Assembly: GCA_036507075.1 (NCBI GenBank)
Contig: DASXQR010000143.1
Location: forward strand, 1-32,480
From: Acidobacteriota bacterium
Lineage (GTDB): Bacteria > Acidobacteriota > UBA6911 > JACQSX01
Length of the DNA: 32,480 nt
Direction: 5' to 3'
Part shown: one piece after another, positions 1 to 24,494 of the stretch
Position numbering within the stretch: position 1 is the first letter of the stretch
Layout: each line of letters starts with the position of its first letter
The notes under the pieces: model-generated
What the model saw: the letters and a program-made list of their open reading frames with translations, nothing else
The model's database searches: none
What the model was told of the DNA's origin: nothing
Made by a program: the position numbers and the translations under genes

Positions 1-76
1 TGGCGTCCCCACGGGGATTCGAACCCCGGTTACCGCCGTGAAAGGGCGATGTCCTAGGCCTCTAGACGATGGGGAC
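1..76 (-). tRNA. tRNA-Glu (anticodon TTC), CCA encoded
   Basis: Reverse complement GTCCCCATCGTCTAGAGGCCTAGGACATCGCCCTTTCACGGCGGTAACCGGGGTTCGAATCCCCGTGGGGACGCCA: acceptor stem GTCCCCA/TGGGGAC, T-loop GTTCGAATC, anticodon loop CT-TTC-AC, 3' CCA. Confidence 0.97.
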
Positions 77-82
77 GGGATT

Positions 83-169
83 TCGAAGGCGGAATGGGGA
101 ATGCGGAATGCGGAATAAGAAGCTTAAAGCCTGCTATTCCGCATTCCGCATTCCGAATTTCGCATTCGA
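83..169. repeat. Inverted pair of (ATGCGGA)n heptamer arrays between the two tRNAs (family A, copy 1)
   Basis: Left arm tcgaaggcggaatggggaatgcggaatgcggaata (83-117); right arm tattccgcattccgcattccgaatttcgcattcga (135-169). Confidence 0.9.
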
Positions 170-171
170 GT

Positions 172-244
172 TGAGCCGTGATGGACTCGAACCATCGACC
201 CTCGCATTAAAAGTGCGATGCTCTGCCAACTGAGCTAACGGCCC
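172..244 (-). tRNA. tRNA-Lys (anticodon TTT), CCA not encoded
   Basis: Reverse complement GGGCCGTTAGCTCAGTTGGCAGAGCATCGCACTTTTAATGCGAGGGTCGATGGTTCGAGTCCATCACGGCTCA: D-arm AGCTCAGTTGGCAGAGC, anticodon loop CT-TTT-AA, T-loop GTTCGAGTC; followed by ACT rather than CCA. Confidence 0.96.
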
Positions 245-344: not shown

Positions 345-514
345 ACCACAAAGGCACAAAGGACACAAAGTTTTTTAGGTTTTCTGTGTCCTTTGTGTAA
401 CCTATCGACGATTTCTTGTTTTTTTAGCAGATTCTTTAACCAATGACCAATGACCAATGACTAATGACCGATGACGTGCTTGCTGTCGGCTCTGCCGGGC
501 TGTGCCTTTGTGGT
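345..514. repeat. Nested repeat: CACAAAG-type 8-9-mer inverted arms (family B) enclosing a (TGACCAA)n heptamer run
   Basis: accacaaaggcaca (345-358) is the exact reverse complement of tgtgcctttgtggt (501-514); an inner arm lies at 385-397; accaatgaccaatgaccaatgactaatgaccgatgac at 439-475. Confidence 0.85.
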
Positions 515-1249
515 GAATTTCTTGTTTCGGAAAGGTGGAAAATGACCGGGGATAATGAGGCCTTCGAAATCTTGCACGCGGCGGGCGCTCTTTTCAAACA
601 GCGAGGGGTCGCTCGCCGGCATCTCTGTTGGCGACACGCCCGCGTGCGGCAGGGCGTCGCCGGCCACCAGAATTCGGCCGGTGTTCTCGATTGAAATGCC
701 GCAGTGCCCGGGCGTATGACCGAAGAGCGGGACCACGGTGACGCCTGCAGGGAGATCGTTTTTTTCATAGAACCGGAATTGATCCCAGCGCTGGAAGAGC
801 TCCTTGCGACAAATCTCGCGCGCCACGTTGATCCAACTTATCGCGGCGTCAATCCGTTCCGGCGGCAGATCCGGAGATGCCCGGGAAAGAAATCTGCGAT
901 CATCGCTCTCTTCCACCAGCGCCCTGTAAAAATCATCGGCCCAGTGAAACTCCGCCTCGCTCACCAGGAGAACGGCTCTGGAAAAGACGGAGTGATTGGT
1001 CGCATGGTCAATGTGCAGGTGGGTATGCAGGATGTGGGTGACATCTTCCGGCCGCACGCCCTGCTGCGCCAATCCGTCAATCAATTTGGTACGGGTGCGA
1101 GGCCAGCCTGAGTCGATCAGCAGAACCGCCCCGTCCAATTTCACCAGAGTGACGGCCGCCTGCAGGGAAGTTCCGGCAACGACGATGGTGATCTGGCAGT
1201 GATTCCGGGACACAAATTTCAGGACACGAATTAAGACACGAATTAACAC
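461..1249 (-). CDS. MBL-fold metallo-hydrolase (start uncertain; GTG at 1213 is an alternative)
   Basis: Motifs LIDSG, HTHLHIDH (HxHxDH), GHTPGH, AGDA and PGH. Both ORF termini run into intergenic-type repeats. Confidence 0.85.
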   Translation of the reverse strand: MLIRVLIRVLKFVSRNHCQITIVVAGTSLQAAVTLVKLDGAVLLIDSGWPRTRTKLIDGLAQQGVRPEDVTHILHTHLHIDHATNHSVFSRAVLLVSEAEFHWADDFYRALVEESDDRRFLSRASPDLPPERIDAAISWINVAREICRKELFQRWDQFRFYEKNDLPAGVTVVPLFGHTPGHCGISIENTGRILVAGDALPHAGVSPTEMPASDPSLFEKSARRVQDFEGLIIPGHFPPFRNKKFTTKAQPGRADSKHVIGH

Positions 1250-1341
1250 GAATTACACGAATGATGAACCCACTTTACCACTCATACGCTCTCCCACTCT
1301 CCCGCTCACCCGCTCTCCCGCTCTCCCGCTCTCCCCCCCGC
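1223..1341. repeat. Short tandem repeats: ACACGAAT x4 (1224-1262) and CTCTCCCR octamers (1287-1341, family C)
   Basis: Read directly between the aminotransferase and MBL genes. Confidence 0.85.
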
Positions 1342-2736
1342 TCACGGATGACGCAGGCACCGAAACAGCAGCCGATCCAGTAATTCCACCGCCAGGTCGA
1401 TCTCACCCAGTTCAATGTCGAAGGCAGGAGCGATGGTGAGTACGTTCTTGTAATAGCCGCCCACATCCAGCACCAGTCCATACTGTTTTCCGTCAACTTC
1501 GATGTTCCCCTCCAATCCCTGCTCGAACATCCGGTGCGTCAGCTCGCGATCGGGGGTAAAACCATCGGACCGGCAGATCTCGATGCGCAATGCCAGCCCA
1601 AGCCCCCCGACATCACCGATCACTCCGACGTGCTTCTTTTGAAGAGCTTTCAGCCTCTCCAGGAAACAGGCGCCCTTTTCTGAAATCATCTTTTCCAGAT
1701 CTTTTTCCGCGATCATGCGCAAAACTTCGAGCGCGACGGCGGTTCCCAGAGGATTAGATGCAAAGGTGGAGTGCGTCGAGCCTGGAGGGAATTTCTCCGG
1801 ACTGATCAGTGATTCGCGCGCCCAGAGACCGGACAGCGGATTCAAACCGTTGGTGAGGGCCTTGCCGAAAACAAGAATATCGGGCTGCACGCCGAAGTGT
1901 TCAATCGCCCAAAACTTTCCGGTGCGATAGAGACCCATCTGGATTTCGTCATCAACCAGCAGGATCCGATGTTCGTCGAGAATTTTCCGCAGGGCAGGAA
2001 GGTAGCCTGCCGGAGGAATAATGTAGCCGCCGGTACCCTGGAGCGGTTCAATGTAAAATGCGGCGTATTCGCTCTCGCTTGCCTTGGGGTCCCATACCGA
2101 GTAATACTCCGATTCAAAAAGACGCTCGAACTGCTTGACACAATATAGCTCGCAGTCATCCGGTTTCTTGCCGTAGGGGCAGCGAAAGCAATAAGGAAAT
2201 GGAATGAATTCCGCGCGATCGCCGAAGTGGCCATAGGGACGCCGATATCGGTAGCTCGAGGTGATGGCCGTGGCGCCCAGCGTGCGGCCATGGTAGCTCC
2301 CCATGAAGGAAAACATCAGATTTTTTCCTGTATTGAGTCGCACCAGCTTCAGAGAATCTTCGATGGCCTGCGCGCCTCCGACATTAAAGTGAACTCGACC
2401 GGCCGAGCCGAAGCGCTGCTCGCAAACGCGCGCGAGTTGTGCGGCCACTTCCACCTTTTCCCGGTGCAAATACTGGCAAGCCAGTTGCGGCAGGGAATCG
2501 AGCTGCCTGACAAGCGCGTCGCGCAGGCGTCGATTTCGATAACCAAAGCTGGCAGCCGAATACCACATCTGGAGGTCCAGGTAGGGCGTGCCCTCCTCAT
2601 CAAATAAATAGCAGCCCTCACAGGACTCAAATACTTTGGGCTTACTTGCGTAGTGGACTGTATCGCCATGGGAGCAGTGCTGCCGGTCCAGTGCCAGAAT
2701 TTCATTCGTGCTGTGTTCTTTGCGGCGTTCACTCAT
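1342..2736 (-). CDS. Class III PLP-dependent aminotransferase
   Basis: GGAQAIEDSLKL, SYHGRT, IEPLQGTGG and the class III PLP-lysine signature DDEIQMGLYRTG...PDILVFGKALTNG, then HSTFASNP. ATGA overlap with the upstream HAD gene. Confidence 0.93.
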   Translation of the reverse strand: MSERRKEHSTNEILALDRQHCSHGDTVHYASKPKVFESCEGCYLFDEEGTPYLDLQMWYSAASFGYRNRRLRDALVRQLDSLPQLACQYLHREKVEVAAQLARVCEQRFGSAGRVHFNVGGAQAIEDSLKLVRLNTGKNLMFSFMGSYHGRTLGATAITSSYRYRRPYGHFGDRAEFIPFPYCFRCPYGKKPDDCELYCVKQFERLFESEYYSVWDPKASESEYAAFYIEPLQGTGGYIIPPAGYLPALRKILDEHRILLVDDEIQMGLYRTGKFWAIEHFGVQPDILVFGKALTNGLNPLSGLWARESLISPEKFPPGSTHSTFASNPLGTAVALEVLRMIAEKDLEKMISEKGACFLERLKALQKKHVGVIGDVGGLGLALRIEICRSDGFTPDRELTHRMFEQGLEGNIEVDGKQYGLVLDVGGYYKNVLTIAPAFDIELGEIDLAVELLDRLLFRCLRHP

Positions 2737-3425
2737 AAAGAAGCCACCTCTCCATCACTCTCTTCGCCAACAAAACCGAGGTAATCCACGACGTCGCGTA
2801 AATGCCGGATCGGCTGGCAGGGCAAATTTCGCTGCCGGCAGTAGCGTTGTAACCAGCCCTTGGCAAAGACCCGATCGACCCATTCCGCTGCGGCGCAATC
2901 GGACTGTCCATCGCCGATCAGGATACGCGTGGCACCGGCGACCGACAGTTTTCTGATCAGCTCCGGTTTGCAGGTTCCACAACCATGGGCGCAGTTTTCC
3001 GCGAATGGAAAATTCCATGAAAGAGTTCCGTTGCGGAATTCAAGATGGCTGGAAAAGCTTCGAATCCCCAGCGCGTCAGCATCGATTTGATGGAATGCCA
3101 GCACGCGGGAAATGATCCAGTCGAAACCGTCGCTGAACAGGATCAGGGGAATCCCGTTGAATTGAGCCCATTGAGCCAGCGCCCGAAAATATGGATCGAT
3201 CCGGACCGTACGCAGCAGCTCTTCCAACTGAGCTTGGGTGACGCGCACCAGTCGCAATTGGCGGTCCAGGCATTCCCGCGCGCTGATTTGATGCCTCTTC
3301 CATGCCTCTTCCACGGTCTTCCATTCAGCGCCGGCGAAGGTTTCCAACATCAGATCGACGACGTCCTGGACGGTCACGGTTCCGTCGAAATCACAAAAGA
3401 TGATCATCGGCCTATCGTTCATCAA
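2733..3425 (-). CDS. HAD-IB phosphatase, MtnX-like
   Basis: Motif I FCDFDGT, motif II FSDG, a CxxxCGTCK segment carrying the motif III Lys, motif IV IGDGQSD. Confidence 0.9.
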   Translation of the reverse strand: MMNDRPMIIFCDFDGTVTVQDVVDLMLETFAGAEWKTVEEAWKRHQISARECLDRQLRLVRVTQAQLEELLRTVRIDPYFRALAQWAQFNGIPLILFSDGFDWIISRVLAFHQIDADALGIRSFSSHLEFRNGTLSWNFPFAENCAHGCGTCKPELIRKLSVAGATRILIGDGQSDCAAAEWVDRVFAKGWLQRYCRQRNLPCQPIRHLRDVVDYLGFVGEESDGEVASL

Positions 3426-4713
3426 TCAGACGCCTCAACTTTCGCCCCTGCGCTGGCGGGGCTTCGCTTGGAACAACCGCGATCCGGTACATGTGACACT
3501 CATGATTGGCCCACATTCCGGGTTGTTGCCCCCGGATGCGATCGCGGATTTTCTGTTCCAGCTCCGCAGGCGATGCTGCGCCATTTAATGCGACGCGAAA
3601 TTCCAGCAGGTCTCTTCCACCTTCTTGCCGCACTGCCGCATACCAGGAGTGCGGCCATCCTTGGATTCCGTCCACCAGTTTTTCGAGCAGAAGAGGGTAA
3701 ATGTTCCCTGCGCCCATCACGACCATCTCGTCACGCCGCGTCTGCAGCGGGGCGATGCGCGGAACCGTTGCTCCGCACGGGCAAGGGCCGGAGATGAATC
3801 GAGTCACGTCGCGCGTGCGATAGCGAATCAGCGGCATTACGCGGCGATTGAGCGTGGTAACCACCAGTTCTCCGAATCCGTTTGCATCCGGCTCAACAAT
3901 CTCGACGATCAGGTTGAACGCGTCCACGTGCAGGCCTTCTCGATGAAAGCATTCCGTGGCGAGAACACCGCCTGTTTCCGTGGTTCCATATCCTTGCAGC
4001 ACCGGGCAGCGCCAGATGCTCTCTGCATAACGGCGCGTGGCCTCGGGCAGCCGATCACCGCCGCAGTAGATCAGCTTTAATTGCGGCGCATCTCCGGCGC
4101 TTCGGCAGGCATCGGTTAGACTGAGAAGCCACGTGGGGTCGGCCATCAGGACGGAATAGCGATCGCGGATGATGCGCTCCAGCGCGTCTTCAGGATTGAG
4201 TTTTCCCGCCATCGACCCGAACACGTTCAACATTCGGAAAGTGGCCTCGGTAACAGGACCCGTCACCCAGAATCCCTGATCAAAGGTGCAGAGAATCCGG
4301 TCGTCAGGACGGACGCCAAAATAATAGAGAGCGCAGGCTTCATAGCGGGCAAGCTCGTCGATTTCACGGTGTGAAAAATAAGCGCGCTTCGGTCGTCCCG
4401 TCGTACCGCTTGTTTCAAAAACCTGGTTGGCAGCCGAGCATAGAAAACTCTCCGGGTCGCGCTGCAGTTCCTCCGGCCAGGTGAAAAAACTGAGATCCGA
4501 AATATCGCGCACCCTGCGAGGATCGATTTTGTATTCCGACAATTTGGTTCTGTAATGCGGAGACCTTTCCGCCACCCAGCGCACCAGGCCCTGCAGTTCG
4601 AGACGGGATTTGAAGGTTATGGCCGGCAGTGGAACAATGGGCGCAATCTGCGCCATGCAGCGAATGCTTCGCGTAAGCAGAAATTCCATGCCGCCGGCGA
4701 CGCGATCAAGCAT
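3412..4713 (-). CDS. PaaK/phenylacetate-CoA-ligase-like adenylate-forming enzyme (ANL superfamily)
   Basis: P-loop TSGTTGRPK, GYGTTE, GELVVTTL, PLIRYRTRD and a C-terminal GRKLRRLIDER. SD-like GGGGG before the ATG. Confidence 0.88.
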   Translation of the reverse strand: MLDRVAGGMEFLLTRSIRCMAQIAPIVPLPAITFKSRLELQGLVRWVAERSPHYRTKLSEYKIDPRRVRDISDLSFFTWPEELQRDPESFLCSAANQVFETSGTTGRPKRAYFSHREIDELARYEACALYYFGVRPDDRILCTFDQGFWVTGPVTEATFRMLNVFGSMAGKLNPEDALERIIRDRYSVLMADPTWLLSLTDACRSAGDAPQLKLIYCGGDRLPEATRRYAESIWRCPVLQGYGTTETGGVLATECFHREGLHVDAFNLIVEIVEPDANGFGELVVTTLNRRVMPLIRYRTRDVTRFISGPCPCGATVPRIAPLQTRRDEMVVMGAGNIYPLLLEKLVDGIQGWPHSWYAAVRQEGGRDLLEFRVALNGAASPAELEQKIRDRIRGQQPGMWANHECHMYRIAVVPSEAPPAQGRKLRRLIDER

Positions 4714-5824
4714 GCATGCCCCCTATTTCCTGGCCGGTCAGTCTCTGCAATCGCAGAACGATTTTCGCTGCCGTAGAGGTTGGGTTGCTCCGGCCGTATT
4801 TCCTTCGGAATCCCTGGCGCAGCAAATCCAGGGCAAGCTGCGCAATCTCTGTCGGGTTGCCGGCGGTGAATCCCGCGCCTCGCCCGAGAAAGCTCCGCAA
4901 GTTTTCTTCCTCCGGCCCTGGCAGAGGATCAAAAACAATCGTGGGAAGCGACATTGCCTCGGCTTCCGCCAGGGTCAGAGCTCCCGGCTTGGTGATCAGC
5001 AAGTTACAGGCTGCCATGTACTGCTCGATATGGTCGGTCCAGCCATTCACCAGGAGCGTCACGCGCGGCAGCCGCAAAGCCTGGAGGCGGTGCAGCAGGC
5101 CCTGATCTTTCCCCGCAACCGCAACGATCTGGATCGGTTCGTTTGAGAGGCGATTCAGCTCGACGGCGATACGATCGAGCCTGGCTGGCCCCATTCCGCC
5201 CGCCATCAGCAACACTACAGGATGGCCGGTGGAAAGGCCCAGGTCTTCACGGGCGCGCAAAAGATTGGCGTGGAAGGAAGCGCGTACCGGAATTCCGGCG
5301 ACTTCGATGCTTTCCGGTAACGCGCCCCATCGCCGCAGATCTTCGGCAACCTTGGCAGACGGAACAATGTAAATATCAACGCCGGGTTGAACCCATGCGG
5401 GCTCGCCTTGAAAGTCGGTTACCAGGGCTGCGATGGAAACACACCCATCGATGGTCGACTTGTAAATGGACGCGATCTCGCTTGCTCCCACTTCCGCAGC
5501 GACGATGAGCCCGGGTCTCACGCTGGAAATGTTCTGCAACAATCGCCGGGCGCCTGCCTTGAGCAGAAAATGAGGAAACGTCTTCCGGTGCCCTTCCGCC
5601 AGTCGAGATTGGAAAAGCTTTCGCCACAAAGAGGGCCAATACCGAATCATCCACCAGTAGGGGCGGACGTAGACCAGCCGAAACCAGGCGGGGAAGTATT
5701 CGATCGCGTCCCAGACGAGCGCCTGGCTGCCGGTTTGTTTGCGCCATTCTTCCGCCACGCTTTGAGCGGCCGACACATGTCCCATGCCGAAAGAAAGCGT
5801 CAGTACCAACAGAGGAGACCTCAT
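4706..5824 (-). CDS. MGDG-synthase/UgtP-like glycosyltransferase (GT28), copy 2; 372 aa
   Basis: True start MRSPLLVLTLSFGMGHVSAA at 5824 (ATGA overlap with the permease stop). Motifs GxGH, VTDF, GIPV, AGGMG, LITKPGALTLAE and PGPEEEN. Confidence 0.9.
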   Translation of the reverse strand: MRSPLLVLTLSFGMGHVSAAQSVAEEWRKQTGSQALVWDAIEYFPAWFRLVYVRPYWWMIRYWPSLWRKLFQSRLAEGHRKTFPHFLLKAGARRLLQNISSVRPGLIVAAEVGASEIASIYKSTIDGCVSIAALVTDFQGEPAWVQPGVDIYIVPSAKVAEDLRRWGALPESIEVAGIPVRASFHANLLRAREDLGLSTGHPVVLLMAGGMGPARLDRIAVELNRLSNEPIQIVAVAGKDQGLLHRLQALRLPRVTLLVNGWTDHIEQYMAACNLLITKPGALTLAEAEAMSLPTIVFDPLPGPEEENLRSFLGRGAGFTAGNPTEIAQLALDLLRQGFRRKYGRSNPTSTAAKIVLRLQRLTGQEIGGMHA

Positions 5825-6543
5825 TTGTCTCTCCACGGCAGCAGATGATCGCCCCAGACGACCACTGCGGCCGACATCAAGCCGAGTACAAGCAAGTCGA
5901 AGCCGATTCCCGCGCGATCTGAAAGCACTTTCCAGAATGCATCGGCGGCATAAGTGGGCGGCAGGGCCCTTGAAAGATATTGAAGGGGCGCCGGCAGCAC
6001 CGGCATGGCATAAAAAACGGGGCACACCAGCACCGTACCCGTTCCGATCAGATCGTTGAGCAAGGCGCCCTGCTGGATACTGTGAGCGTAGCGCGCGCTT
6101 ATCAGAGCAATCGCGGCCAGTGGAATGGTGCTGAGGACGGCAATGGCCAGCAAGCTGAAGGCCAGGTGGGGCCGCAGGTGTATGACACTTGCAAACAACA
6201 ACATCAAAATACTGCTCAGCAATCCCTGGCAGAGCGCAAAGAGAAATACCCCCAGCAGATAAGAGCGGGGTGAAACGGGGGAAGTGATGATCAACTTCAA
6301 GCGGCCGCGAAAGCGGTCTTCCAGAAGAGTAAAGCCCAGACCTACGACCGAGAGCATGGAGAGCGCGAATACAATCGAGCCGGCCAGCAGTCGGAGTGAG
6401 GGTTTGCCTTCCGCCACCCCGCTGGTAAAAAGCAGCATTCCCACAGGCAGCGCAACAGCGCTCAGCAGAAAATATCCCAGCGCGCTGCGCGACTCCTGAA
6501 CGTAGAGCCAAAAAATCAGGAGAATATCGCGAAGGTTTTTCAA
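5821..6543 (-). CDS. ABC-2 type exporter permease
   Basis: About six hydrophobic segments; EDRFRGRLKLIITSPVS and PVFYAMPVLPAPLQYLSRALPPTYA are ABC-2 membrane motifs; TTGA overlap with the ATPase gene. Confidence 0.88.
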   Translation of the reverse strand: MKNLRDILLIFWLYVQESRSALGYFLLSAVALPVGMLLFTSGVAEGKPSLRLLAGSIVFALSMLSVVGLGFTLLEDRFRGRLKLIITSPVSPRSYLLGVFLFALCQGLLSSILMLLFASVIHLRPHLAFSLLAIAVLSTIPLAAIALISARYAHSIQQGALLNDLIGTGTVLVCPVFYAMPVLPAPLQYLSRALPPTYAADAFWKVLSDRAGIGFDLLVLGLMSAAVVVWGDHLLPWRDK

Positions 6544-7289
6544 GAATCCCCCCTCACAAGCTGAAAGTACACCTGTGTAAGATTCGTTTTCTCTGCCGGG
6601 ATCGACCGCTTCCGCGTCCCCAATTCATCCAGCCTTCCCAACGCGATCAGTTTTCCCTGAGACACGATGGCGATCCGGTCCGCCAGCCCTTCCGCTTCCT
6701 CAAGGTAGTGAGTAGTAATGAGGATGGTGGTCCCTGCGGTTTTGCGCCGAATCAGCACATCCCAAAGCCCGCGGCGACTTTCCGGATCCAGCCCCGCCGT
6801 CGGCTCATCCAGGATCAGCAGCGGCGGATTCATAATCAGGGCAAGCCCCACAAGCGTGCGACGCTTCAGCCCCCCTGAGAGGTTTTTGATCGCCACAGCG
6901 CTGCGCGTGTCCAATTCGAGTTCGCGCAAGACTTCGCGAGCGGCGATTTTGGCCTGCTGCGATCGCGCTCCACGAAAGAGGGCGAAATAGTACAAATGCT
7001 GGCTGACGGTGAGATGTTCGAAGAGCTCCGCCTCCTGCGGGACCACGCCGATGAATTCTTTGACGCGCTGGGGTTTCCGCACCGCATCAACGCCGAAAAT
7101 TTCAATCGTCCCGCCGGAGGGCCGCAGTTCCGTGGTGAGCTGGCGAACCAGCGTCGTTTTTCCCGCCCCGTTTGGTCCGAGAATCACCAGAAGCTCACCG
7201 TGCGAAACCGTCAGATTGACGGCGTCGAGCGCCAGTGTGCCGTTTGCATATCGCTTGCTCAGGCCTTCGGTTCGGATCGCAGCAATCAT
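6540..7289 (-). CDS. ABC-2 exporter ATP-binding subunit (DrrA/CcmA-like)
   Basis: Walker A GPNGAGKT, signature LSGG, Walker B LLILDEPTAGLD, H-loop TTHY. Start MIAAIR at 7289 with a GGAGG SD and ATGA overlap. Confidence 0.93.
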   Translation of the reverse strand: MIAAIRTEGLSKRYANGTLALDAVNLTVSHGELLVILGPNGAGKTTLVRQLTTELRPSGGTIEIFGVDAVRKPQRVKEFIGVVPQEAELFEHLTVSQHLYYFALFRGARSQQAKIAAREVLRELELDTRSAVAIKNLSGGLKRRTLVGLALIMNPPLLILDEPTAGLDPESRRGLWDVLIRRKTAGTTILITTHYLEEAEGLADRIAIVSQGKLIALGRLDELGTRKRSIPAEKTNLTQVYFQLVRGDS

Positions 7290-8020
7290 CTCATTGCCTC
7301 CCTTGTATGGGCGATCATCGTGCCGACGGTCACAAACTTGAAGCCGCGACGCTTCAGAACCGGAACCAACTCGCAAACCGCATCCAGCGTCCCGCGACGA
7401 TCGGGAAAAGCCTGATCATGACTGGCGTCATGGAACAGAACGATTTCGCCATCTCGAACCCGGCGCAGAACGCGATTCACAATCCAGGATTGCTCCGGAT
7501 TGTTCCAGTCTTTGCCGGAGAGCGACCAGAGCACCGTGGTAAGCCCGAGCCTTTTCGCTTCATGCAGCACCTGAGGGCCGCGGTCGCCAAAGGGTGGGCG
7601 AAACAGTGAGGGAGGCTTGCCCGCCGCGCGCGCCAGCACCTCCTGCGCGCGCTGCAATTCATCCCGTACGGCGGAACTGGATCGAAACCAGAGGTTGGGA
7701 TGTGAGTAAGAGTGATTCCCAACCTGATGGCCTGCGGCGACCAGGTCGGCGACGCTGTTTGGGTGCTGCTTGGCGCGTTCGGCGATACAGAAGAAAGTCG
7801 CCGGCATGTTCAATTTCCACAGCCGTTCGGAAAACAATGGCGTCCATCGCGGATCCGGGCCGTCATCAAACGTGAGAGCGATCTCCATCCGGCCCGGAAC
7901 TCCCCGGTGAACGGCGGGCCCGAATAGCCGGGACGCCGGGCAGGTCACACCGCGGTAGATCGAATAAGAAACAAGCCCTGCCATTCCGCTCCCCACCAGC
8001 AAACTACTGTGCCATGGCAT
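7286..8020 (-). CDS. Membrane-anchored polysaccharide deacetylase (CE4/NodB family)
   Basis: CE4 motifs TFDDGP, HSYSH, RPPFG, DW and LFHD; N-terminal hydrophobic anchor; start MPWHSS at 8020 with a GAGGA SD. Confidence 0.92.
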   Translation of the reverse strand: MPWHSSLLVGSGMAGLVSYSIYRGVTCPASRLFGPAVHRGVPGRMEIALTFDDGPDPRWTPLFSERLWKLNMPATFFCIAERAKQHPNSVADLVAAGHQVGNHSYSHPNLWFRSSSAVRDELQRAQEVLARAAGKPPSLFRPPFGDRGPQVLHEAKRLGLTTVLWSLSGKDWNNPEQSWIVNRVLRRVRDGEIVLFHDASHDQAFPDRRGTLDAVCELVPVLKRRGFKFVTVGTMIAHTREAMR

Positions 8021-9131
8021 AGTGTTCCTCGCTGCTTGCCAGCGCCACAATTTGTCGTGCTGCATCGGCCGGCAATAAGGATCGCCCGGCGCTGCTCAGG
8101 CCTTGCAGGCGCGCCGGATTTGCAAGAAGCCCGGAGATGACTTGGGCCAGCTCCCGATCGGAAGCCACGGCGATTGCCGCGCCCGCTTCCACGGCAAAGC
8201 GCATGTTGGCGCGCTCCCAACAGCCCAGCGGCCGCAATAACACCAGAGGCCGGCCCACAATCATCGACTCAGCCAGGGTCATACCGCCAGGCTTGGTGAC
8301 GATCAGATCGGCAGCCGCCATCCACCGGGCAACTTCGTCCGTCCAGCCCAGCACAAGAAGATTAGTGTGCTCTAAACGGCGGAGACGTCGCGTGTCGCCG
8401 GCAACGGAGCCGGCGAGCACGACATGCAGGGCATCAACAGATGCCAAAGAGTTCCGGAGGGCGGGTTTCAGGAGATTGCCGCTCATCCCGCCGGCCATGA
8501 ATAGAACAATGAAGCGTTTTGCCGGGGCTCCCAGCGCGCGCCGGGCGCTTTGCTTGTCGGCCGTCATGAACTGTTGCAAAACCGGTATGCCTGTAACGCG
8601 AATCGACCGGCCCGGCACACCCATCTGAAGCAGGCGATCTCTTTCCCACAGAGTGGGTACGCAATAAGTATCGATTTTCTTGTTCAGCCACACGGGATCG
8701 ATGAAACGAAAATCGATAATGGAAGCGGTGCTTGTAATATCGCGGTTCCGGCGCTGGGGAAACAAAGCGAGCAATTCACAAGCCGCAATTTCCGTTGATA
8801 TCACCGCCGAAGGCTTGAAGCGTTGCAGGAACTCTGAAAAGGCACGGGCCCCTCGCCGGATCACTGCGGGTGGAAACGTCCATACGTCCTGGCCGTTGCA
8901 GCGCGGCTCATCCTTCCACATCCGGTCGGCGATGCCGGGAGCATGGCGAATGAGATTGAGATAACTTTGGTGGTAAATCCAGCGGAACCACGGGGAGTAG
9001 AAGCGCGCCACATCCAACCGGCGGATGTCGGTCCATGTTGCATCCCGGGAGGCCGCCTCATGCAGCGCGCGCGCCGCCTGACCGTGACCGGCTCCGCACG
9101 ACAAGTACAAGATGAGCAGTTTTTTTTGCAT
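8004..9131 (-). CDS. MGDG-synthase/UgtP-like glycosyltransferase (GT28), copy 1; 375 aa
   Basis: Start MQKKLLILYLSCGAGHGQAA lies 2 nt after the radical SAM stop. Motifs TGIPV, AGGMSG, ADLIVTKPGGMTLAE and WERAN. Confidence 0.9.
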   Translation of the reverse strand: MQKKLLILYLSCGAGHGQAARALHEAASRDATWTDIRRLDVARFYSPWFRWIYHQSYLNLIRHAPGIADRMWKDEPRCNGQDVWTFPPAVIRRGARAFSEFLQRFKPSAVISTEIAACELLALFPQRRNRDITSTASIIDFRFIDPVWLNKKIDTYCVPTLWERDRLLQMGVPGRSIRVTGIPVLQQFMTADKQSARRALGAPAKRFIVLFMAGGMSGNLLKPALRNSLASVDALHVVLAGSVAGDTRRLRRLEHTNLLVLGWTDEVARWMAAADLIVTKPGGMTLAESMIVGRPLVLLRPLGCWERANMRFAVEAGAAIAVASDRELAQVISGLLANPARLQGLSSAGRSLLPADAARQIVALASSEEHYAMAQ

Positions 9132-9133
9132 CG

Positions 9134-10303
9134 TCAGGACTCGTAAAGCCGGCAGCACTTGCCGCAAATCGCAAAGAGATTGCCCGCCCGAAGAAACCGG
9201 CGGAATTTCTCCATCTTCGGTCCCCGCCATACGTCTCGAATGCTCTGTTCGCGCAAATTACCGACAACCAGATCGGGAAAATCGTGGCAGGTGTAAACGT
9301 CTCCGTTCGGCTGCACCTCCAGATGTTTCCATGGCGCGTGGCAGGAGCGGTGGAATGTGAACCCGGGTCTCCGAAAGAACCGCTCCAGCTCGGCACGGTC
9401 GGCTAGATTCGGAAAAAACATCAATGGAGGGCTCTTCTTTGCCTCGCGAATCTCCCGCATCTGGGCCGAGAGCGTGTCGAGATCGATCTGCTCCTGAATG
9501 CTTCCCACAAATCCCCGCCAGCTGGAGCCGGATGTCCCAAACTCTTCATGGAGCCGTTTCTCGTAGGCAGCGCCCATTTTTTCAGTGACGAAGAGAGGGA
9601 AACCAAAGTCGAGATGGTCCACCTCCAGTTGCCGGGCCAGCTCGAGCATTTTGTCGAGACGTGAATAGTTTGCATTCGTGATGGTGCACGCCAAAGCCAC
9701 CAGTGGGTATTTCCTGCGCCCGTCTTTTCGCGCCTTTACTACCGCGCTGAGGCCGTTCACGGCGGCTGCATAGCTTTCCGGGCCGCGCACTGCATCATGA
9801 TCCGGCTGGATGCCATCGATCGAGACGATCAGCAGATCGACGCCCATTTCCACCAGTTGCCCTCCATAGTCGTCAAGGCGCGTGCCGTTTGTGTTGACGG
9901 CGACAAACATCCGGCGGCGTTTTATCGCCCGTAAGACGTCAAGAATACCGGCGTAGAGAAAAGGTTCTCCGCCCCAGATGTAGAAGTCCGGCCGGTGAGG
10001 GGCACATTCTTCGATGATCCGCACATAATCCTGAACCGAAAGGGTAGAAGTGAGTTGCTCTCTCGGAAGAAGGAAGTGAAATCCGGTCTTTCCCCACTGA
10101 CCGCACATCCTGCAGCGCAGATTGCAGAGGTTGGTGATTTTGAAATTGACTGTGCGCGGAAACCTGCAAAACCGCGTCCCGAATCGTTCATCCAGCGGCG
10201 CCAGCACCAGCGAAAACCAGCACCGCTTCACTTCCCGCCGAATGAGGCTGGGGAAGAGAATCCCCAGCTCCAGTTTCTTTATCGCCTGGCTCAAAAGAGT
10301 CAT
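9134..10303 (-). CDS. Radical SAM enzyme with a C-terminal Twitch/SPASM 4-Cys auxiliary-cluster domain
   Basis: CNLRCRMC (CxxxCxxC), WGGEPF, NTNG and VSIDG; C-terminus C-x17-C-x40-C-x2-C (CHAPW...GDVYTC...GNL...ICGKCC). Confidence 0.93.
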   Translation of the reverse strand: MTLLSQAIKKLELGILFPSLIRREVKRCWFSLVLAPLDERFGTRFCRFPRTVNFKITNLCNLRCRMCGQWGKTGFHFLLPREQLTSTLSVQDYVRIIEECAPHRPDFYIWGGEPFLYAGILDVLRAIKRRRMFVAVNTNGTRLDDYGGQLVEMGVDLLIVSIDGIQPDHDAVRGPESYAAAVNGLSAVVKARKDGRRKYPLVALACTITNANYSRLDKMLELARQLEVDHLDFGFPLFVTEKMGAAYEKRLHEEFGTSGSSWRGFVGSIQEQIDLDTLSAQMREIREAKKSPPLMFFPNLADRAELERFFRRPGFTFHRSCHAPWKHLEVQPNGDVYTCHDFPDLVVGNLREQSIRDVWRGPKMEKFRRFLRAGNLFAICGKCCRLYES

Positions 10304-10375
10304 GATTTTTTCCAGCGCTCTGCGCTGTGTCGCTCGAAGGCCGATCGCCGAGGCTTCCGATCCTTCAGCAGCGTT

Positions 10376-10651
10376 TTACGTTTGATAGCCTTGTCCCAAC
10401 GCGGCCTGGCTGCGCTCGCGCAAAGATGACTGGATTGCTTCGACGACATCACGAATGCATCTCACGCTTCGGACAGCATCGTCGGGGATTGACACCTCAA
10501 ACGCATCTTCAAGGTCGAACACCAGGGAAAAGATCTCCAGCGAATCGACTTGAAGCTGATCAAATGGCGTATCCACGCTCAGGTTCGTGCCGGGCGGCCG
10601 TCTTTTAAGGAATATCGAGAAAACGCGATCTTGAATCTCTCGCTCTGTCAT
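10376..10651 (-). CDS. Acyl carrier protein
   Basis: Phosphopantetheine site VDSLE followed by LEDAFEVSIPDD; acidic, 91 aa; strong AAAGGAGA SD. Confidence 0.92.
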   Translation of the reverse strand: MTEREIQDRVFSIFLKRRPPGTNLSVDTPFDQLQVDSLEIFSLVFDLEDAFEVSIPDDAVRSVRCIRDVVEAIQSSLRERSQAALGQGYQT

Positions 10652-10656
10652 ACAGT

Positions 10657-10705
10657 CTCCTTTTCCAAATTTGCCGCGACAACGGAAACTTGGATCGTTC
10701 AGGAG
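10657..10705 (-). promoter_or_regulatory. Predicted hairpin sequestering the ACP Shine-Dalgarno
   Basis: On the mRNA: CUCCU-gaacga-UCCAAGUUUCCG-uugucg-CGGCAAAUUUGGA-aa-AGGAG. The inner stem is about 12 bp (one G-U, one bulge); an outer CUCCU/AGGAG pairing covers the SD. Confidence 0.5.
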
Positions 10706-10723
10706 TGGAAGTTGTGGCGAAAA

Positions 10724-11128
10724 CTAGATAAAACGAGAAGCCGGCAGGGGAGGAGCCCGTGGAGAGAATTCAGCGAAGCAGGAATTGATTTCGGCGCTGT
10801 CGAGACTGGGAACCAGCGGAAAAAAGAGATGAGCGGGCGCCTCCCAGTAATGGAAGTCCTGGGGCAGCGCCTTTTCCATGTCCGGGAAATCGGGGACCAC
10901 AATATCTTGTGCGGTTGTTGTTTGCAGGCTCGGAGAAGCCATGACGAGGTCGAGGCCGTCGCCTTGTTCCTGGTCATCGAAATCGGCGATGATGGCATCG
11001 ACGATCTCGTCGAGCTCTGGGGTAGGATCCGTTCTATAACAGATGTCGAACGGATAAATCAGGCATATCTGGAGCGCCAGGCCGGCAACAAAGATCCGCA
11101 TCAGGCGTAACCGCAGCAAGGTGCCCAT
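10724..11128 (-). CDS. Hypothetical exported/membrane-anchored protein with a C-terminal RAPP motif (candidate ribosome arrest peptide)
   Basis: Basic-hydrophobic N-terminus (MGTLLRLRLMRIFVAGLALQICLIYPF), acidic linker, C-terminus FSP-RAPP-LPASRFI*. Fills the gap upstream of the ACP operon on the same strand. Confidence 0.65.
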   Translation of the reverse strand: MGTLLRLRLMRIFVAGLALQICLIYPFDICYRTDPTPELDEIVDAIIADFDDQEQGDGLDLVMASPSLQTTTAQDIVVPDFPDMEKALPQDFHYWEAPAHLFFPLVPSLDSAEINSCFAEFSPRAPPLPASRFI

Positions 11129-11191
11129 GATGGTACTTATTGTACACCCGGAATCAGTTAAACCACTTACCGCTTATTCATTCAAAAACCA

Positions 11192-12460
11192 TCAAGCCGG
11201 GGTCACCGATATTGTTGAGACGCGTTTACCGCGGCCGCATTCCAGCAAGACCACTAGAAGCAATGCGATCAGGGAGAACGTCACGATATGGTAGCTGTGA
11301 AGAAATAAACCCGCGCTTCGCCCGGCCAATGCCCGATACGGAACCACCACGAATAACACGAAGCCGGATAATAGAACAGCAGCCGATCGATCGAAGTATC
11401 GCCGGAAGACCACAGCTCTCGCGATCAGGTAGATACCCGGCAGTGTCCCCACACAGTGCTGCGTCCACGTAATCGGCGAATAAAGCAGCATCAGTATGGA
11501 AATTGCGGCGCATTCCCACAAGATGCGAGGATCGGATCGGGACGCTACGCGTCCCTTAAACAAGAACGCGACTGATGCCAGCAGCGCGATCATCAGTGCA
11601 TTAATAATCAACGCTGCCGTCGACGGACGCATGTCGAATAGATCAATGTGGCCTCTTCCACTCCATCGACCCGGATGACCGTCCGGCAGGTGAATCAGAA
11701 ATCGGGCGAGCGCAGGGCGGAATGCAAGATTCTGCAGCGGCTCGTCGCCGAGCGTTCCACGTGACGGATCAGCCAGCGGCCACAGACCGCGCGCGGCACT
11801 GAATGCCCATATTTTCATGTGATCGCCGTAACTGTTTGGCTGGATAATCGCCGGGGCCAGTGTGAGAGCGAGCGCGACAACCGAGCCCGCGACGACCGTC
11901 CTCCATTGTCGCTTCAAAACGAAGTAGGCCAGGAAAAGGACCGGAGTGCATTTCAACGCAGCCGCCAGACCGAGCAGGAGTCCCGCTGCCACCTCTCGCT
12001 GCCTGGACCAGAAGTAAATGCCTGTCCAAACCAATGCGACTATCAGCGTATTGAAGCCACATTCCGACAGATCACGAAGGAGGAATTGGCCGGCCAGGAC
12101 GACTGCGCCGGACATGGCCCAAAAATCTTGTTCCGGACCAAGCGGCCAGATAGGACGCGCCAGGCGATGCAACACATGAATCAACCCGCAAAGCGACAGA
12201 ATCGCGAGCGGGTAGACTAAAAACTGAGCCGTGTTTGACGGGAGCAGTGAGAGAGGCGCTTGAACCATGGCCCAGAACGGTGGATACGGAACGTCCAGTC
12301 CTCCGAAATAAAGAAATTCACCCGCCAAAAATCTGCGGCCGAATTCCCGGTGTCGCATAAAATCGCCTTGCGGGGCCAGCGCAATTTGGATCCACTTATA
12401 GAAGATTGCCAAGACGACCAGGGTCTCGAATATGGTTTCCCAGAGCCGTGAAATGTTCAA
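11192..12460 (-). CDS. GT87/DUF2029-like polytopic membrane glycosyltransferase (GT-C fold); start uncertain (TTG 12460; frame open to 12631)
   Basis: GDF...LY...VPYPPF early loop motif, LAAALKCTPVLFLAYFVLKRQWR, NLAF and SPITWTQH; many transmembrane segments. Confidence 0.82.
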   Translation of the reverse strand: MNISRLWETIFETLVVLAIFYKWIQIALAPQGDFMRHREFGRRFLAGEFLYFGGLDVPYPPFWAMVQAPLSLLPSNTAQFLVYPLAILSLCGLIHVLHRLARPIWPLGPEQDFWAMSGAVVLAGQFLLRDLSECGFNTLIVALVWTGIYFWSRQREVAAGLLLGLAAALKCTPVLFLAYFVLKRQWRTVVAGSVVALALTLAPAIIQPNSYGDHMKIWAFSAARGLWPLADPSRGTLGDEPLQNLAFRPALARFLIHLPDGHPGRWSGRGHIDLFDMRPSTAALIINALMIALLASVAFLFKGRVASRSDPRILWECAAISILMLLYSPITWTQHCVGTLPGIYLIARAVVFRRYFDRSAAVLLSGFVLFVVVPYRALAGRSAGLFLHSYHIVTFSLIALLLVVLLECGRGKRVSTISVTPA

Positions 12461-12678: not shown

Positions 12679-14230
<1,552 letters not shown>

Positions 14231-14232
<2 letters not shown>

Positions 14233-14511
14233 GTGGGGGAGTGGGTGAGCGGGGGAGTGGGGGAACGGGAGTGAGGAGTGGGAAAGCGAGGGAGCGGGGG
14301 AGTATTGTCGACATCCGAACCGCGCGCGTGAGCAAGCGGACCCTCGATTGAGCATTTCTGTACCCCGCTGGAAGTCTACGCCGCGGTACTTGTATTCGGC
14401 ATTCACAGGGATAGCCAAATGGAGGGTCCGCTTGCTTACGCGCGCGGTTCGGATGTGGGCGTTACTCCTTCCACTCCCCCCCCTCTCCCGCTCCCGCACT
14501 CTCCCACTCCC
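14231..14511. repeat. Nested palindrome: family C (GGGAGTG/GGGAGCG) arms enclosing a 35-bp REP-like inverted repeat
   Basis: acatccgaaccgcgcgcgtgagcaagcggaccctc (14311-14345) versus gagggtccgcttgcttacgcgcgcggttcggatgt (14422-14456), one mismatch; G-rich arm 14231-14303, C-rich arm 14463-14511. Confidence 0.88.
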
Positions 14512-14546
14512 GGTGCGCGGCTTCTTATTCTTAATCAGGAATCCAT

Positions 14547-15317
14547 ATGAATCGAGAACTGCTGGGGCAGGTAATTGCGGAATTTCTGGGAACGATGGTG
14601 CTGGTGATGTTGGGGGACGGAGTGGTGGCCATGGTGGTGCTGTTTGGCAGCGGCGTGCCGGGCGAGGTGGTCAAGGGCGGGTATACCAATATCACCATCG
14701 GGTGGGGCCTGGCCGTCATGATGGGGATTTATGTGGCGGGAAAAGTAAGCGGCGCCCATTTGAACCCCGCAGTGACGGTGGCGCTGGCCGTATTCCGGCG
14801 GTTTCCCTGGAATAAAGTGGGCGCCTACATTGCCGCGCAAATGGCGGGCGCGTTTGTGGCCGCGTCGATTGTTTATTTGAATTACCGGCCGGCGTTTCAA
14901 CGCGTGGACCCGATGCTTTCGCGAACAGCGGGAGTGTTCACGACGTTCCCCGCGTTCCCCGACGCCGTGCTCGCAGGATTTGTCGATCAGTTTATTGGAA
15001 CCGCCCTGCTGATGGGCCTTCTGCTGGCCATCATTGACGAACGCAATCAAGTCCCCGGGTCGAATCTGGTCCCGTTGATGGTAGGGCTGGTAGTCGTAGC
15101 GATCGGAATATCGTGGGGAGGGATGCACGGGTATGCCATCAATCCGGCTCGAGACTTCGGGCCACGGCTGTTTACAGTGGTCGCCGGCTTCAAGAACAAT
15201 GGTTTGACGGATGGGAGATTGATCTTCTGGGTTCCCATTGTCGGACCGGTGCTGGGGGCCCTGTTCGGGGCGCTGATTTATGATCGGGCAGTGCGGCCGT
15301 TTCTGCCGTTCAAGTGA
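14547..15317 (+). CDS. glpF: Glycerol uptake facilitator (aquaglyceroporin, MIP family)
   Basis: SGAHLNPAVT and GYAINPARD (the D after the second NPA indicates a glyceroporin), AEFLGT; follows glpK. Confidence 0.95.
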   Translation: MNRELLGQVIAEFLGTMVLVMLGDGVVAMVVLFGSGVPGEVVKGGYTNITIGWGLAVMMGIYVAGKVSGAHLNPAVTVALAVFRRFPWNKVGAYIAAQMAGAFVAASIVYLNYRPAFQRVDPMLSRTAGVFTTFPAFPDAVLAGFVDQFIGTALLMGLLLAIIDERNQVPGSNLVPLMVGLVVVAIGISWGGMHGYAINPARDFGPRLFTVVAGFKNNGLTDGRLIFWVPIVGPVLGALFGALIYDRAVRPFLPFK

Positions 15318-15325
15318 ACGAACAA

Positions 15326-15676
15326 TTCACCACAGGAAGACAGCTTGGCGGTAGCCGCAACCAAGGAAAAGGCCGAGGACGGCCACGTGCACGTGCACGT
15401 CAACGATGGACGTCAACGATCACGTCCACGCTCACGTCAATGTTCACGGAACACGTTCGAGTTGCTTGACAGATTTAGAGCCTGATCATTTTGGTCAACA
15501 GCGACACGATGAGTTCCAAGAGTTGCGTTGTCGCGTACCTAACCGGCACAGGGGCCAAAGCTTGCGATTTTTTCTCGTGAGCGTGGTCGTTGAACGTTTA
15601 GGCCGACGTGCACGTGCGCGTGGCCGTCCTCGGCTTTTTCTTGGGTTGCGGCCTACGGCTAAGCCTATTTGGTGAA
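15326..15676. repeat. Large imperfect inverted repeat with GCCGCAACCAAG arms and CACGT(G/C) hexamer arrays
   Basis: gccgcaaccaaggaaaaggccgaggacggccacgtgcacgtgcacgt (15354-15400) versus acgtgcacgtgcgcgtggccgtcctcggctttttcttgggttgcggc (15606-15652); outer ttcacca/tggtgaa ends. Confidence 0.85.
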
Positions 15677-15720
15677 TGATTTCGCCGGTTCAAGCTATCC
15701 TATGAATCTAAAGGACTGAC

Positions 15721-16866: not shown

Positions 16867-16901
16867 AATCCTTTGCCGCCAAGGCGCGACGACACAAACA
16901 A

Positions 16902-17041
16902 AATGCGGATTGCGGATTGCGGAATGCGGAATGAAGCTTGTGGTCAGCAGTCAAGGCAGCTCGAACAATTCACGACGGACCATGGGGCAAGGGACCAGCG
17001 ACAATCCCTTATTCCGCATTCCGCAATCCGCATTCCGCATT
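16902..17041. repeat. Family A inverted (ATGCGGA)n hairpin, copy 2
   Basis: aatgcggattgcggattgcggaatgcggaat ... attccgcattccgcaatccgcattccgcatt. Confidence 0.9.
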
Positions 17042-17067
17042 CTCCAGGCTAAAACCTGCCTTCACCC

Positions 17068-18443: not shown

Positions 18444-18486
18444 ATTCACCACAGAGGCGAAGTCCGTAGACCGCACCAAAGCCGTC

Positions 18487-18594: not shown

Positions 18595-18633
18595 GTTGGT
18601 TGCGACCAAAGTGCACACCTGATGATTCAAGTT

Positions 18634-19500: not shown

Positions 19501-19509
19501 ATAGGTTTT

Positions 19510-24491: not shown

Positions 24492-24494
24492 AGT

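What the first reader, a model, noticed from the sequence alone, without database searches (positions are those of the whole stretch)
461..12460. Unrecognised biosynthetic cluster, candidate acylated amino-glycolipid/glycoconjugate pathway with its own exporter
Seen: co-oriented genes for GT87, ACP, Twitch radical SAM, GT28, CE4 deacetylase, ABC-2 ATPase and permease, a second GT28, PaaK-like ligase, HAD phosphatase, class III aminotransferase and MBL hydrolase. From the radical SAM to the aminotransferase every junction is an overlap or a 2-nt gap (9134/9131, 8020/8004, 7289/7286, 6543/6540, 5824/5821, 4713/4706, 3425/3412, 2736/2733), indicating one operon. Established: MGDG-synthase/UgtP GT28s glycosylate lipid acceptors. 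A functional set of radical SAM dehydrogenase, aminotransferase, deacetylase, phosphatase and ACP occurs in butirosin biosynthesis (BtrN, BtrB, BtrD, BtrP, BtrI). Inference: the locus combines glycolipid-synthase enzymes with aminoglycoside-like tailoring to make and export a cationic, possibly N-acylated glycolipid or glycoside. I know of no described pathway with this gene set.
Basis: partly seen in the sequence, partly recalled or inferred. Interest (0 to 1): 0.85.

Follow-up and report, generated by a model that had tools for sequence, protein, structure and literature searches.

The report
Acidobacterial amino-glycolipid building operon
This is a real, tightly packed run of genes, with versions in many other bacteria, that likely builds and exports a positively charged sugar-lipid on a predicted nitrogen-containing backbone, and it matches no described pathway that I could find.

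Summary
The genes and all eight tight junctions are real. The cluster is conserved. Among 80 genome loci fetched with the aminotransferase, 74 have the HAD phosphatase, 41 the PaaK-like ligase and 35 a GT28. The full two-GT28/CE4/ABC-2 form recurs in Blastocatellia. GT87 (0/80) and the MBL hydrolase (1/80) are not core.

The butirosin analogy fails: the locus has no cyclitol synthase, no DegT aminotransferase and no AHBA module. A better precedent is C. difficile HexS/HexD (GT28 plus deacetylase), which make an aminohexosyl glycolipid.

The ligase and an alpha/beta-hydrolase never co-occur (41/31/0), which suggests two interchangeable acyl-transfer steps on the amine made by the aminotransferase/phosphatase pair. 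The radical SAM enzyme is a distant type (20-24%) from that of related operons and comes from a family of surface-glycan loci. A missed 134-aa RAPP-motif gene, a candidate ribosome-arrest leader, precedes the ACP.

Best reading: an undescribed amino-glycolipid pathway; product and substrates are inferred. This scan noted similar operons on other DNA (e1-3829707, e1-5240939).

The parts
11192..12460 (-). GT87-family membrane glycosyltransferase; accessory, start uncertain (frame open to 12631)
   Evidence: PF09594 E 3e-23; 8 hydrophobic segments; 0 of 80 related loci; absent in L089
11137..11148 (-). Conserved -10-like element 8-10 nt before the orf134 start; predicted promoter of a nearly leaderless transcript
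   Evidence: 12-nt stretch nearly identical in window and L089 within otherwise divergent DNA; not picked up by the consensus scan
10724..11128 (-). orf134: leader gene with N-terminal hydrophobic segment and C-terminal RAPP motif; candidate ribosome-arrest peptide
   Evidence: 55% identical in L089 at the same position; RAPP in 3 of 4 aligned homologues; no Pfam family
10376..10651 (-). Acyl carrier protein, paralogue of the ACP in an ACP-KAS pair on contig C192
   Evidence: PF00550; DSL serine motif; groups with the C192 ACP at SH-aLRT 98
9134..10303 (-). Radical SAM enzyme with four-cysteine Twitch-type domain; predicted sugar-modifying
   Evidence: PF04055 + PF13186; C60/C64/C67 and C321/C339/C380/C383 invariant in 31 sequences; best fold BlsE; family beside DegT genes in 16 of 97 loci
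8004..9131 (-). GT28a, MGDG-synthase/UgtP-like; predicted N-acetylhexosamine transferase, overlapping the CE4 gene
   Evidence: PF06925; 17-nt overlap with CE4; long branch in the GT28 tree
7286..8020 (-). CE4 (NodB-type) deacetylase
   Evidence: PF01522 E 4e-35; four CE4 motifs located; closest structures are GlcNAc deacetylases
6540..7289 (-). ABC-2 ATPase
   Evidence: PF00005; 51-55% identical to the ATPase of Blastocatellia-type operons
5821..6543 (-). ABC-2 permease
   Evidence: PF01061; 6 hydrophobic segments; 12 of 80 loci
4706..5824 (-). GT28b, the conserved glycosyltransferase of the operon family; predicted first sugar transferase
   Evidence: PF06925; closest structures UgtP and MGD1; 35-44% to the GT28 in 35 of 80 loci
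3412..4713 (-). PaaK-like adenylate-forming ligase; predicted acyl transfer step
   Evidence: PF00501; closest structures PaaK, AjiA1 and 6siw; 41 of 80 loci, never with the alpha/beta-hydrolase
2733..3425 (-). MtnX-like HAD-IB phosphatase
   Evidence: TIGR01489 99.4 bits, over cut-off 81.55; beside the aminotransferase in 74 of 80 loci
1342..2736 (-). Class III PLP enzyme of a highly conserved subfamily with no solved close relative
   Evidence: PF00202; 60-74% identity across about eight phyla; best solved relatives under 30% in the fold search; invariant T235, D424, T434 and R151/R163/R165
461..1249 (-). Metallo-beta-lactamase-fold hydrolase; accessory (start 1249 or 1213)
   Evidence: PF00753; 128-nt gap from the 1213 start; 1 of 80 loci, there on the opposite strand

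Best explanation
The overlapping genes from the radical SAM enzyme to the aminotransferase form a conserved operon that likely builds and exports a cationic amino-glycolipid whose acyl chain would be joined to an amine made by the operon itself. Shown: gene identity, tight coupling, conservation, and the co-occurrence patterns. Inferred, in order: (1) the class III PLP enzyme aminates a small phosphorylated carbonyl compound, most simply a triose phosphate, and the MtnX-like phosphatase frees an amino-polyol. (2) The PaaK-like ligase activates a carboxylic acid and transfers it to that amine, directly or through the ACP; the ketosynthase that other versions carry beside the ACP would be supplied from contig C192. 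(3) GT28b adds a first sugar, GT28a adds an N-acetylhexosamine, and the CE4 enzyme removes the acetyl group to leave a positive charge, as HexS and HexD do. (4) The radical SAM enzyme alters a sugar. (5) The ABC-2 pair moves the product across the inner membrane. (6) orf134 may couple translation of the operon to membrane insertion by ribosome arrest. My odds: amino-sugar membrane glycolipid of some kind about 0.7; this particular route with an acylated amino-polyol backbone about 0.4.
For: Coupled junctions. HAD beside the aminotransferase in 74 of 80 loci; GT28 with the ligase in 34 of 35 GT28 loci. Ligase only 41, alpha/beta-hydrolase only 31, both 0, neither 8 of 80; the switch needs 5 changes on the aminotransferase tree, at least 3 forced by well-supported branches. 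All 9 loci with two GT28 hits have CE4 (one, L069, may be a split gene), against 8 of 26 with one. HexS/HexD precedent (PMC10128005, passages). Both GT28s are closest to diacylglycerol glycosyltransferases. ACP plus KAS lie in 24 of 80 loci. One phylum relative adds FabZ x2, ACP, KAS x2, a thioester-reductase-like SDR and DUF1571 to the same run. The C192 KAS is sister to the operon-borne KAS group (SH-aLRT 90, quick tree) and the window ACP groups with the C192 ACP. The radical SAM family lies among glycosyltransferase, DegT, WbqC and PIG-L genes.
Against: No substrate or product was measured. The serinol-type step has no homologue support: the aminotransferase of the putative rtx operon of P. 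phymatum is class V and unrelated, and no RtxA-like fusion appeared among longer proteins (weak evidence). The PLP enzyme has Thr where its closest solved relatives have an acidic residue and an Arg, and those relatives include racemases, so it may not be a transaminase. PaaK-type ligases with known substrates take aromatic acids, not long fatty acids (recalled). The C192 ACP-KAS pair is also in G001 and G003, which gave no match to the aminotransferase, so it need not serve this operon. The two window GT28s join each other on long branches instead of sorting with the two Blastocatellia types, so the sugar order is a guess. Four single-GT28 Blastocatellia-type loci still have CE4.
Confidence: 0.45

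Rival explanations
1. The GT28s and CE4 make an aminohexosyl-hexosyl-diacylglycerol on an ordinary glycerol lipid, as in C. difficile, and the aminotransferase, phosphatase and ligase make and attach a small head-group substituent to it.
For: HexS/HexD and UgtA/UgtB precedent; closest GT28 structures act on diacylglycerol; PaaK-type ligases take small acids (recalled); in the hydrolase-type loci the core sits with FemAB-like, DegT and EamA genes, as in envelope-decoration systems.
Against: The HAD-aminotransferase-ligase-GT28 unit occurs without CE4 in 18 of 35 GT28 loci, so the CE4-freed amine is not needed as acceptor; a dedicated ACP-KAS pair or fatty-acid gene set travels with many versions.
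Confidence: 0.27
2. The operon makes a secreted acylated amino-saccharide signal, built on the plan of rhizobial Nod factors (NodB-like deacetylase, NodIJ-like exporter, NodEF-like KAS-ACP pair).
For: CE4 matches NodB (E 5e-42) and the ATPase matches NodI and DrrA; ACP-KAS pair in 24 of 80 loci.
Against: Both matches are far below the family cut-offs (143.6 of 240; 148.5 of 424); no NodC-type GT2 and no NodA in the locus; the ABC-2 pair is in only 12 of 35 GT28 loci.
Confidence: 0.1
3. The PLP enzyme aminates a beta-ketoacyl chain on the ACP (ligase-ACP-KAS-aminotransferase, as in the beta-amino fatty acid modules of iturin-type lipopeptides; recalled), and the beta-amino acyl chain goes into the glycolipid.
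For: Ligase, ACP, KAS and class III aminotransferase are together in the Terriglobia-type loci.
Against: The constant partner of the aminotransferase is the phosphatase (74 of 80), not a KAS (30 of 80); conserved Arg-rich loop fits a phosphorylated substrate (inference).
Confidence: 0.07
4. One reading: a butirosin-like aminoglycoside or other diffusible antibiotic.
For: Twitch-type cysteine pattern shared with BtrN; DrrA-like ATPase.
Against: No DHQ-synthase-family gene in the locus and a single one in the genome, on another contig; no DegT gene in the locus; six of seven AHBA-module genes missing; lipid-type GT28s; this radical SAM is replaced by a distant one (20-24%) in all 16 of 80 related loci that have one.
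Confidence: 0.04

Closest known systems
HexSDF of Clostridioides difficile (PMC10128005, abstract and result passages read; PMC11898633, abstract read)
   Same: MGDG-synthase-like GT28 plus polysaccharide deacetylase plus a transporter in one operon; product is an aminohexosyl glycolipid
   Different: Here an ABC-2 pair replaces the MprF-like flippase, both GT28s are in the operon, and a phosphatase, class III PLP enzyme, ligase, ACP and radical SAM enzyme are added. No sequence comparison with HexS/HexD was run.
Butirosin cluster (BtrC, S, N, M, L, P and the AHBA module; PMC13707489, passages read)
   Same: A Twitch-type radical SAM enzyme, a PLP enzyme, a deacetylase, a phosphatase and an ACP as broad functions
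   Different: No cyclitol synthase, no BtrS-type aminotransferase, no AHBA enzymes; lipid-type glycosyltransferases. That BtrD is PIG-L-type and BtrP is not a HAD enzyme is recalled, not tested.
RtxA serinol route of rhizobitoxine producers (PMC3222319, PMC12666128, PMC5789663, passages read)
   Same: Chemistry that would fit: amination of a triose phosphate followed by dephosphorylation
   Different: The aminotransferase of the putative P. phymatum rtx operon is class V and unrelated in sequence; any likeness is functional and unproven
Nod-factor genes nodABC, nodIJ, nodEF (comparison partly recalled)
   Same: CE4 deacetylase, ABC-2 exporter, dedicated ACP-KAS pair
   Different: No NodC or NodA; matches to NodB and NodI are below cut-off
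RAPP-type arrest peptides such as ApdP and CruR (PMC12992588, passages read)
   Same: orf134 is small, has an N-terminal hydrophobic segment and a C-terminal RAPP, and lies directly upstream of an operon
   Different: Downstream genes are lipid/glycan enzymes; the passages I saw list secretion, metal and redox genes and some unknown enzymes. Arrest is untested.

Membership tests
Butirosin-type aminoglycoside cluster | 2-deoxy-scyllo-inosose synthase (DHQ synthase family) | tested here: not met
   None in the locus; one PF01761 match in the genome, on contig C45; genome 95.7% complete
Butirosin-type aminoglycoside cluster | BtrS-type aminotransferase (DegT family, recalled) in the cluster | tested here: not met
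   The only PLP enzyme is class III; DegT genes exist elsewhere in the genome
Butirosin-type aminoglycoside cluster | BtrN-like radical SAM dehydrogenase | tested here: inconclusive
   Sequence match only in the Twitch domain, E 1.8e-4; Z 18.2, rmsd 2.8, 227 aligned, against BlsE Z 25.0, rmsd 3.1, 292 aligned
Butirosin-type aminoglycoside cluster | AHBA module btrI, J, K, O, V, H, G | tested here: not met
   Only an ACP is present (gene list)
HexSD-type aminohexosyl glycolipid pathway | MGDG-synthase-like GT28 co-encoded with a CE4 deacetylase | tested here: met
HexSD-type aminohexosyl glycolipid pathway | MprF-like flippase (HexF) | tested here: not met
   ABC-2 pair instead; HexF is dispensable for synthesis in the paper
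HexSD-type aminohexosyl glycolipid pathway | Orthology to HexS and HexD | not tested
   Their sequences were not fetched
HexSD-type aminohexosyl glycolipid pathway | Operon-dependent aminohexosyl glycolipid | not testable with these tools
   Needs lipidomics
RtxA-type DHAP aminotransferase | Homology to the aminotransferase of an rtx operon | tested here: not met
   L189:19757-20908 is PF00266 class V; best BLASTP E 0.19. The operon was recognised by its seven-gene content against PMC5789663
Nod-factor gene set | NodC (GT2) and NodA | tested here: not met
   No such family among the locus genes
Nod-factor gene set | NodB and NodI over family cut-off | tested here: not met
   143.6 of 240 and 148.5 of 424 bits
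MtnX-like HAD-IB phosphatases (TIGR01489) | Score over curated cut-off | tested here: met
   99.4 against 81.55 bits; below the cut-off of MtnX proper
RAPP-type arrest peptides | Small upstream ORF with localisation signal and C-terminal RAPP | tested here: met
   5 of 662 similar small hydrophobic-start ORFs in the genome end so
RAPP-type arrest peptides | Translation arrest and control of the next gene | not testable with these tools
   No notable hairpin over the ACP start (z -0.85 and -0.96)

The most novel reading that the evidence does not exclude
The phosphatase-aminotransferase pair is a widespread, undescribed module (about eight phyla here) that makes an amino-polyol which is N-acylated by either of two unrelated enzymes, giving ceramide-like membrane lipids without serine palmitoyltransferase. 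Acidobacteriota turn these into cationic glycolipids, and this lineage puts the operon under a ribosome-arrest leader peptide.
Probability: 0.25. Interest if true: 0.85.

Novelty: new variant of a known kind. Interest (0 to 1): 0.58.

Why it matters
The operon predicts an unknown membrane lipid in abundant soil bacteria and names the enzymes to test. Its phosphatase-aminotransferase core is 60-74% conserved from Acidobacteriota to rhizobial plasmids, yet I found no function for it. One enzyme assay would assign a large class III subfamily and could reveal a new lipid backbone usable as a biomarker. The mutual exclusion of ligase and hydrolase points to the acylation step. A RAPP leader ahead of lipid enzymes would extend arrest-peptide control to membrane lipid synthesis. 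The interest is tempered because amino-glycolipid synthesis by GT28 plus CE4 is known, and the new chemistry is inferred only.

Tried and rejected
RtxA/serinol homology, my first idea: rejected as membership; the supplement of PMC12666128 could not be read and may hold the RtxA sequence.

Glycerol link through the neighbouring glpK/glpF: the adjacency is kept in L089, but G001 has other genes upstream of glpK and no glpK/glpF family was among the neighbours shared by three or more of the related loci that I scanned; treated as synteny.

Sigma-54 control, as noted for another genome: no match upstream in the window (7 matches window-wide, 8.8 expected), and my strict pattern found none directly before 35 related operons.

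Sigma-70 and terminator scans: at chance level. Rfam: only two tRNAs. RBS-masking hairpin after orf134: not supported.

Expression: no RNA holder listed; no reads were laid, so co-transcription is unchecked.

Fold of the aminotransferase: mean pLDDT 69.7 with a poor active-site loop, which gave only the subgroup. ESM Atlas for orf134: unnamed clusters only. GT87 and MBL in five close genomes: not found with these queries.

Literature: no paper with the gene set and nothing on serinol-type or Pyrinomonas lipids that bears on it (listings only); the library lacks most subscription papers.

Rows dropped: locus L172 (unpublished genome G083) and own locus L169 were left out. Loci with neither label and short hits were left out of the tree (74 of 81 rows kept). 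No complex prediction was run.
Full report
Observation. The window is contig C143 of a 6.1 Mb, 56% G+C, 95.7% complete genome, probably an acidobacterium: the best named relatives are Acidobacteriota and an earlier unchecked note on this genome says the same. The eight junctions from the radical SAM gene to the aminotransferase are a 2-nt gap and overlaps of 17, 4, 4, 4, 8, 14 and 4 nt. A 134-aa ORF at 10724-11128 was missed. Two tRNA genes lie just downstream.

Conservation. The aminotransferase belongs to a large, tight subfamily: 5997 proteins at E 1e-50 or better among 8000 scored, the best 120 at 68% identity or more, and 34 plasmid records at 60-80%. By tblastn they hold HAD 74, ligase 41, GT28 35, ACP 24, CE4 17, ABC ATPase 17, radical SAM 16, permease 12, MBL 1 and GT87 0. 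Three layouts emerge. Type A (rhizobial plasmids, Omnitrophota, Nitrospirota, Thermoanaerobaculia) has HAD, aminotransferase and an alpha/beta-hydrolase, often with EamA pairs, arginase-like, FemAB-like and DegT genes. Type B (Terriglobia, group 13) has ACP, KAS, GT28, ligase, HAD and aminotransferase. Type C (Blastocatellia) has radical SAM, ABC-2 pair, one or two GT28, CE4, HAD, aminotransferase and ligase. The window mixes B and C. In an even sample of the phylum 7 of 401 genomes, own included, matched at E 1e-100; five of the six others have type C with two GT28s and one has type A. Both samples come from the same genome collection and may overlap. No orthologue-level match was found in 60 nearer relatives, including four of the same family, two of them only 63% and 77% complete, so the operon is patchy.

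Boundaries. The only close relative with DNA in hand, L089, reads glpF, glpK, orf134 homologue (55%), ACP (68%), radical SAM (77%), GT28a (75%), with no GT87. A 12-nt -10-like element is kept 8-10 nt before the orf134 start in both. The unit most likely runs from orf134 to the aminotransferase, with GT87 and MBL as passengers or late additions.

The core pair. The phosphatase passes the MtnX-like subfamily cut-off but not that of MtnX proper. The PLP enzyme has no solved relative above about 30% identity; the nearest are GABA-aminotransferase-like enzymes and racemases. It keeps R151 and adds invariant R163 and R165, but has Thr at 235 and 434 where the best matches have Glu/Asp and Arg. From recalled class III enzymology these positions govern 2-oxoglutarate binding, so donor and even reaction type are open. 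The constant link to a phosphatase argues for a phosphorylated substrate (inference). I tested kinship with the serinol-forming RtxA: the aminotransferase of the putative rtx operon on P. phymatum pBPHY02 is class V and unrelated, and no RtxA-like fusion was found.

The acyl step. Ligase and hydrolase exclude each other: 41, 31, both 0, neither 8. The aminotransferase tree needs five switches, at least three forced (FastTree, 74 of 81 rows). I read them as alternative ways to acylate the product of the core pair. The ligase keeps its adenylation, zinc-site and C-terminal lysine motifs and is closest to PaaK, AjiA1 and 6siw; that the latter two join acids to acceptors without CoA is recalled. 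The window has an ACP but no KAS. Contig C192 holds an ACP-KAS pair whose KAS is sister to the type B group (SH-aLRT 90, quick tree only) and whose ACP groups with the window ACP (98). Against a dedicated role, G001 and G003 hold the same pair without the aminotransferase match. In genome G198 the type C operon is preceded by two FabZ, ACP, two KAS, a thioester-reductase-like SDR, a nitroreductase-fold protein and DUF1571, the strongest sign of a lipid product.

The sugar steps. Both GT28s are closest to UgtP and MGD1. C. difficile HexS (MGDG-synthase-like) and HexD (deacetylase) make an aminohexosyl-hexosyl lipid through an N-acetyl intermediate (PMC10128005, passages; PMC11898633, abstract). 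All 9 related loci with two GT28 hits have CE4, against 8 of 26 with one, and in the window GT28a overlaps the CE4 gene. The two window GT28s do not sort cleanly with the two type C clades, so their order is inferred from position.

The radical SAM enzyme. It has only four close relatives (59-77%), then a wide family at 30-41%, and is 20-24% identical to the radical SAM of types B and C, so it looks like a replacement. Seven cysteines are invariant. The model (pLDDT 90.9) matches BlsE best, with BtrN well below. Of 97 loci of the wider family, 16 have a DegT aminotransferase, and common neighbours are GT2, GT4/GT9, methyltransferase, WbqC and PIG-L genes. A sugar-modifying role is likely; dehydrogenase, lyase or epimerase cannot be told apart.

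The leader. orf134 has an N-terminal hydrophobic segment and ends in RAPP plus eight residues; the motif is in 3 of 4 aligned homologues, and 5 of 662 comparable small ORFs in the genome end this way. This fits the description of RAPP arrest peptides (PMC12992588, passages). No such leader was seen at the 80 other loci, and folding gave no notable hairpin over the ACP start.

Comparison and verdict. The butirosin set is not met, nor the Nod set. The glycosylation arm works like HexS/HexD; the phosphatase-aminotransferase-ligase arm matches nothing in my paper searches, which cover open-access texts only. Earlier AI notes of this scan describe a type C operon (e1-3829707) and probably a type A cassette (e1-5240939) on other DNA; I treat them as leads, not support. 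Expression is unchecked. Verdict: a real, conserved, apparently undescribed operon, most likely for a cationic amino-glycolipid; new variant of a known kind, with a one-in-four chance of a new lipid backbone route. Interest 0.58.

Noticed in passing
L191:5034-12173 (G000:C120): A second lipid-like cluster in this genome: response regulator, ACP, GNAT protein, a 794-aa PigE-like class III aminotransferase fused to a Shikimate_DH-like domain, FemAB-like protein, PAP2 and a TRAP-T transporter; it may make a long-chain alkylamine lipid.
   Followed up: partly
L190:4847-6372 (G000:C192): Stand-alone ACP-KAS pair related to those inside type B operons; also present in G001 and G003.
   Followed up: yes
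L209:538-1272 (G001): At the same place, divergent from glpK, a 244-aa ORF with an FG-GAP repeat ends in an RSPP motif ahead of a different gene, which by eye resembles an outer-membrane efflux protein.
   Followed up: no
G000 contigs C10, C88, C146, C197: Four more small ORFs with a hydrophobic start and C-terminal RAPP/RGPP: further candidate arrest peptides.
   Followed up: no
L007:8255-14108 and L008:8260-14868: Rhizobial plasmids carry HAD, aminotransferase, arginase-like, EamA, alpha/beta-hydrolase, FemAB-like GNAT and EamA genes, with a fatty-acid desaturase in L008, next to a two-component system.
   Followed up: partly
L107, L111, L113, L116, L127, L137, L143 and others: The wider radical SAM family recurs as methyltransferase-DegT-radical SAM within glycosyltransferase-rich loci, an apparently unassigned sugar-tailoring module.
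   Followed up: partly
window 1-244: tRNA-Glu and tRNA-Lys lie at the downstream end of the cluster, a possible insertion site; G+C does not differ from the rest of the window.
   Followed up: partly
window 12730-32328: Ordinary metabolic genes: glpK, glpF, acyl-CoA dehydrogenase, MeaB, glyoxalase-family protein, a second MBL protein, glucokinase, pentose-phosphate genes, nucleoside phosphorylase, PfkB kinase, TPR protein, NamZ, FAD oxidase; ORFs 20756-21664 and 25410-25997 have no Pfam family.
   Followed up: no
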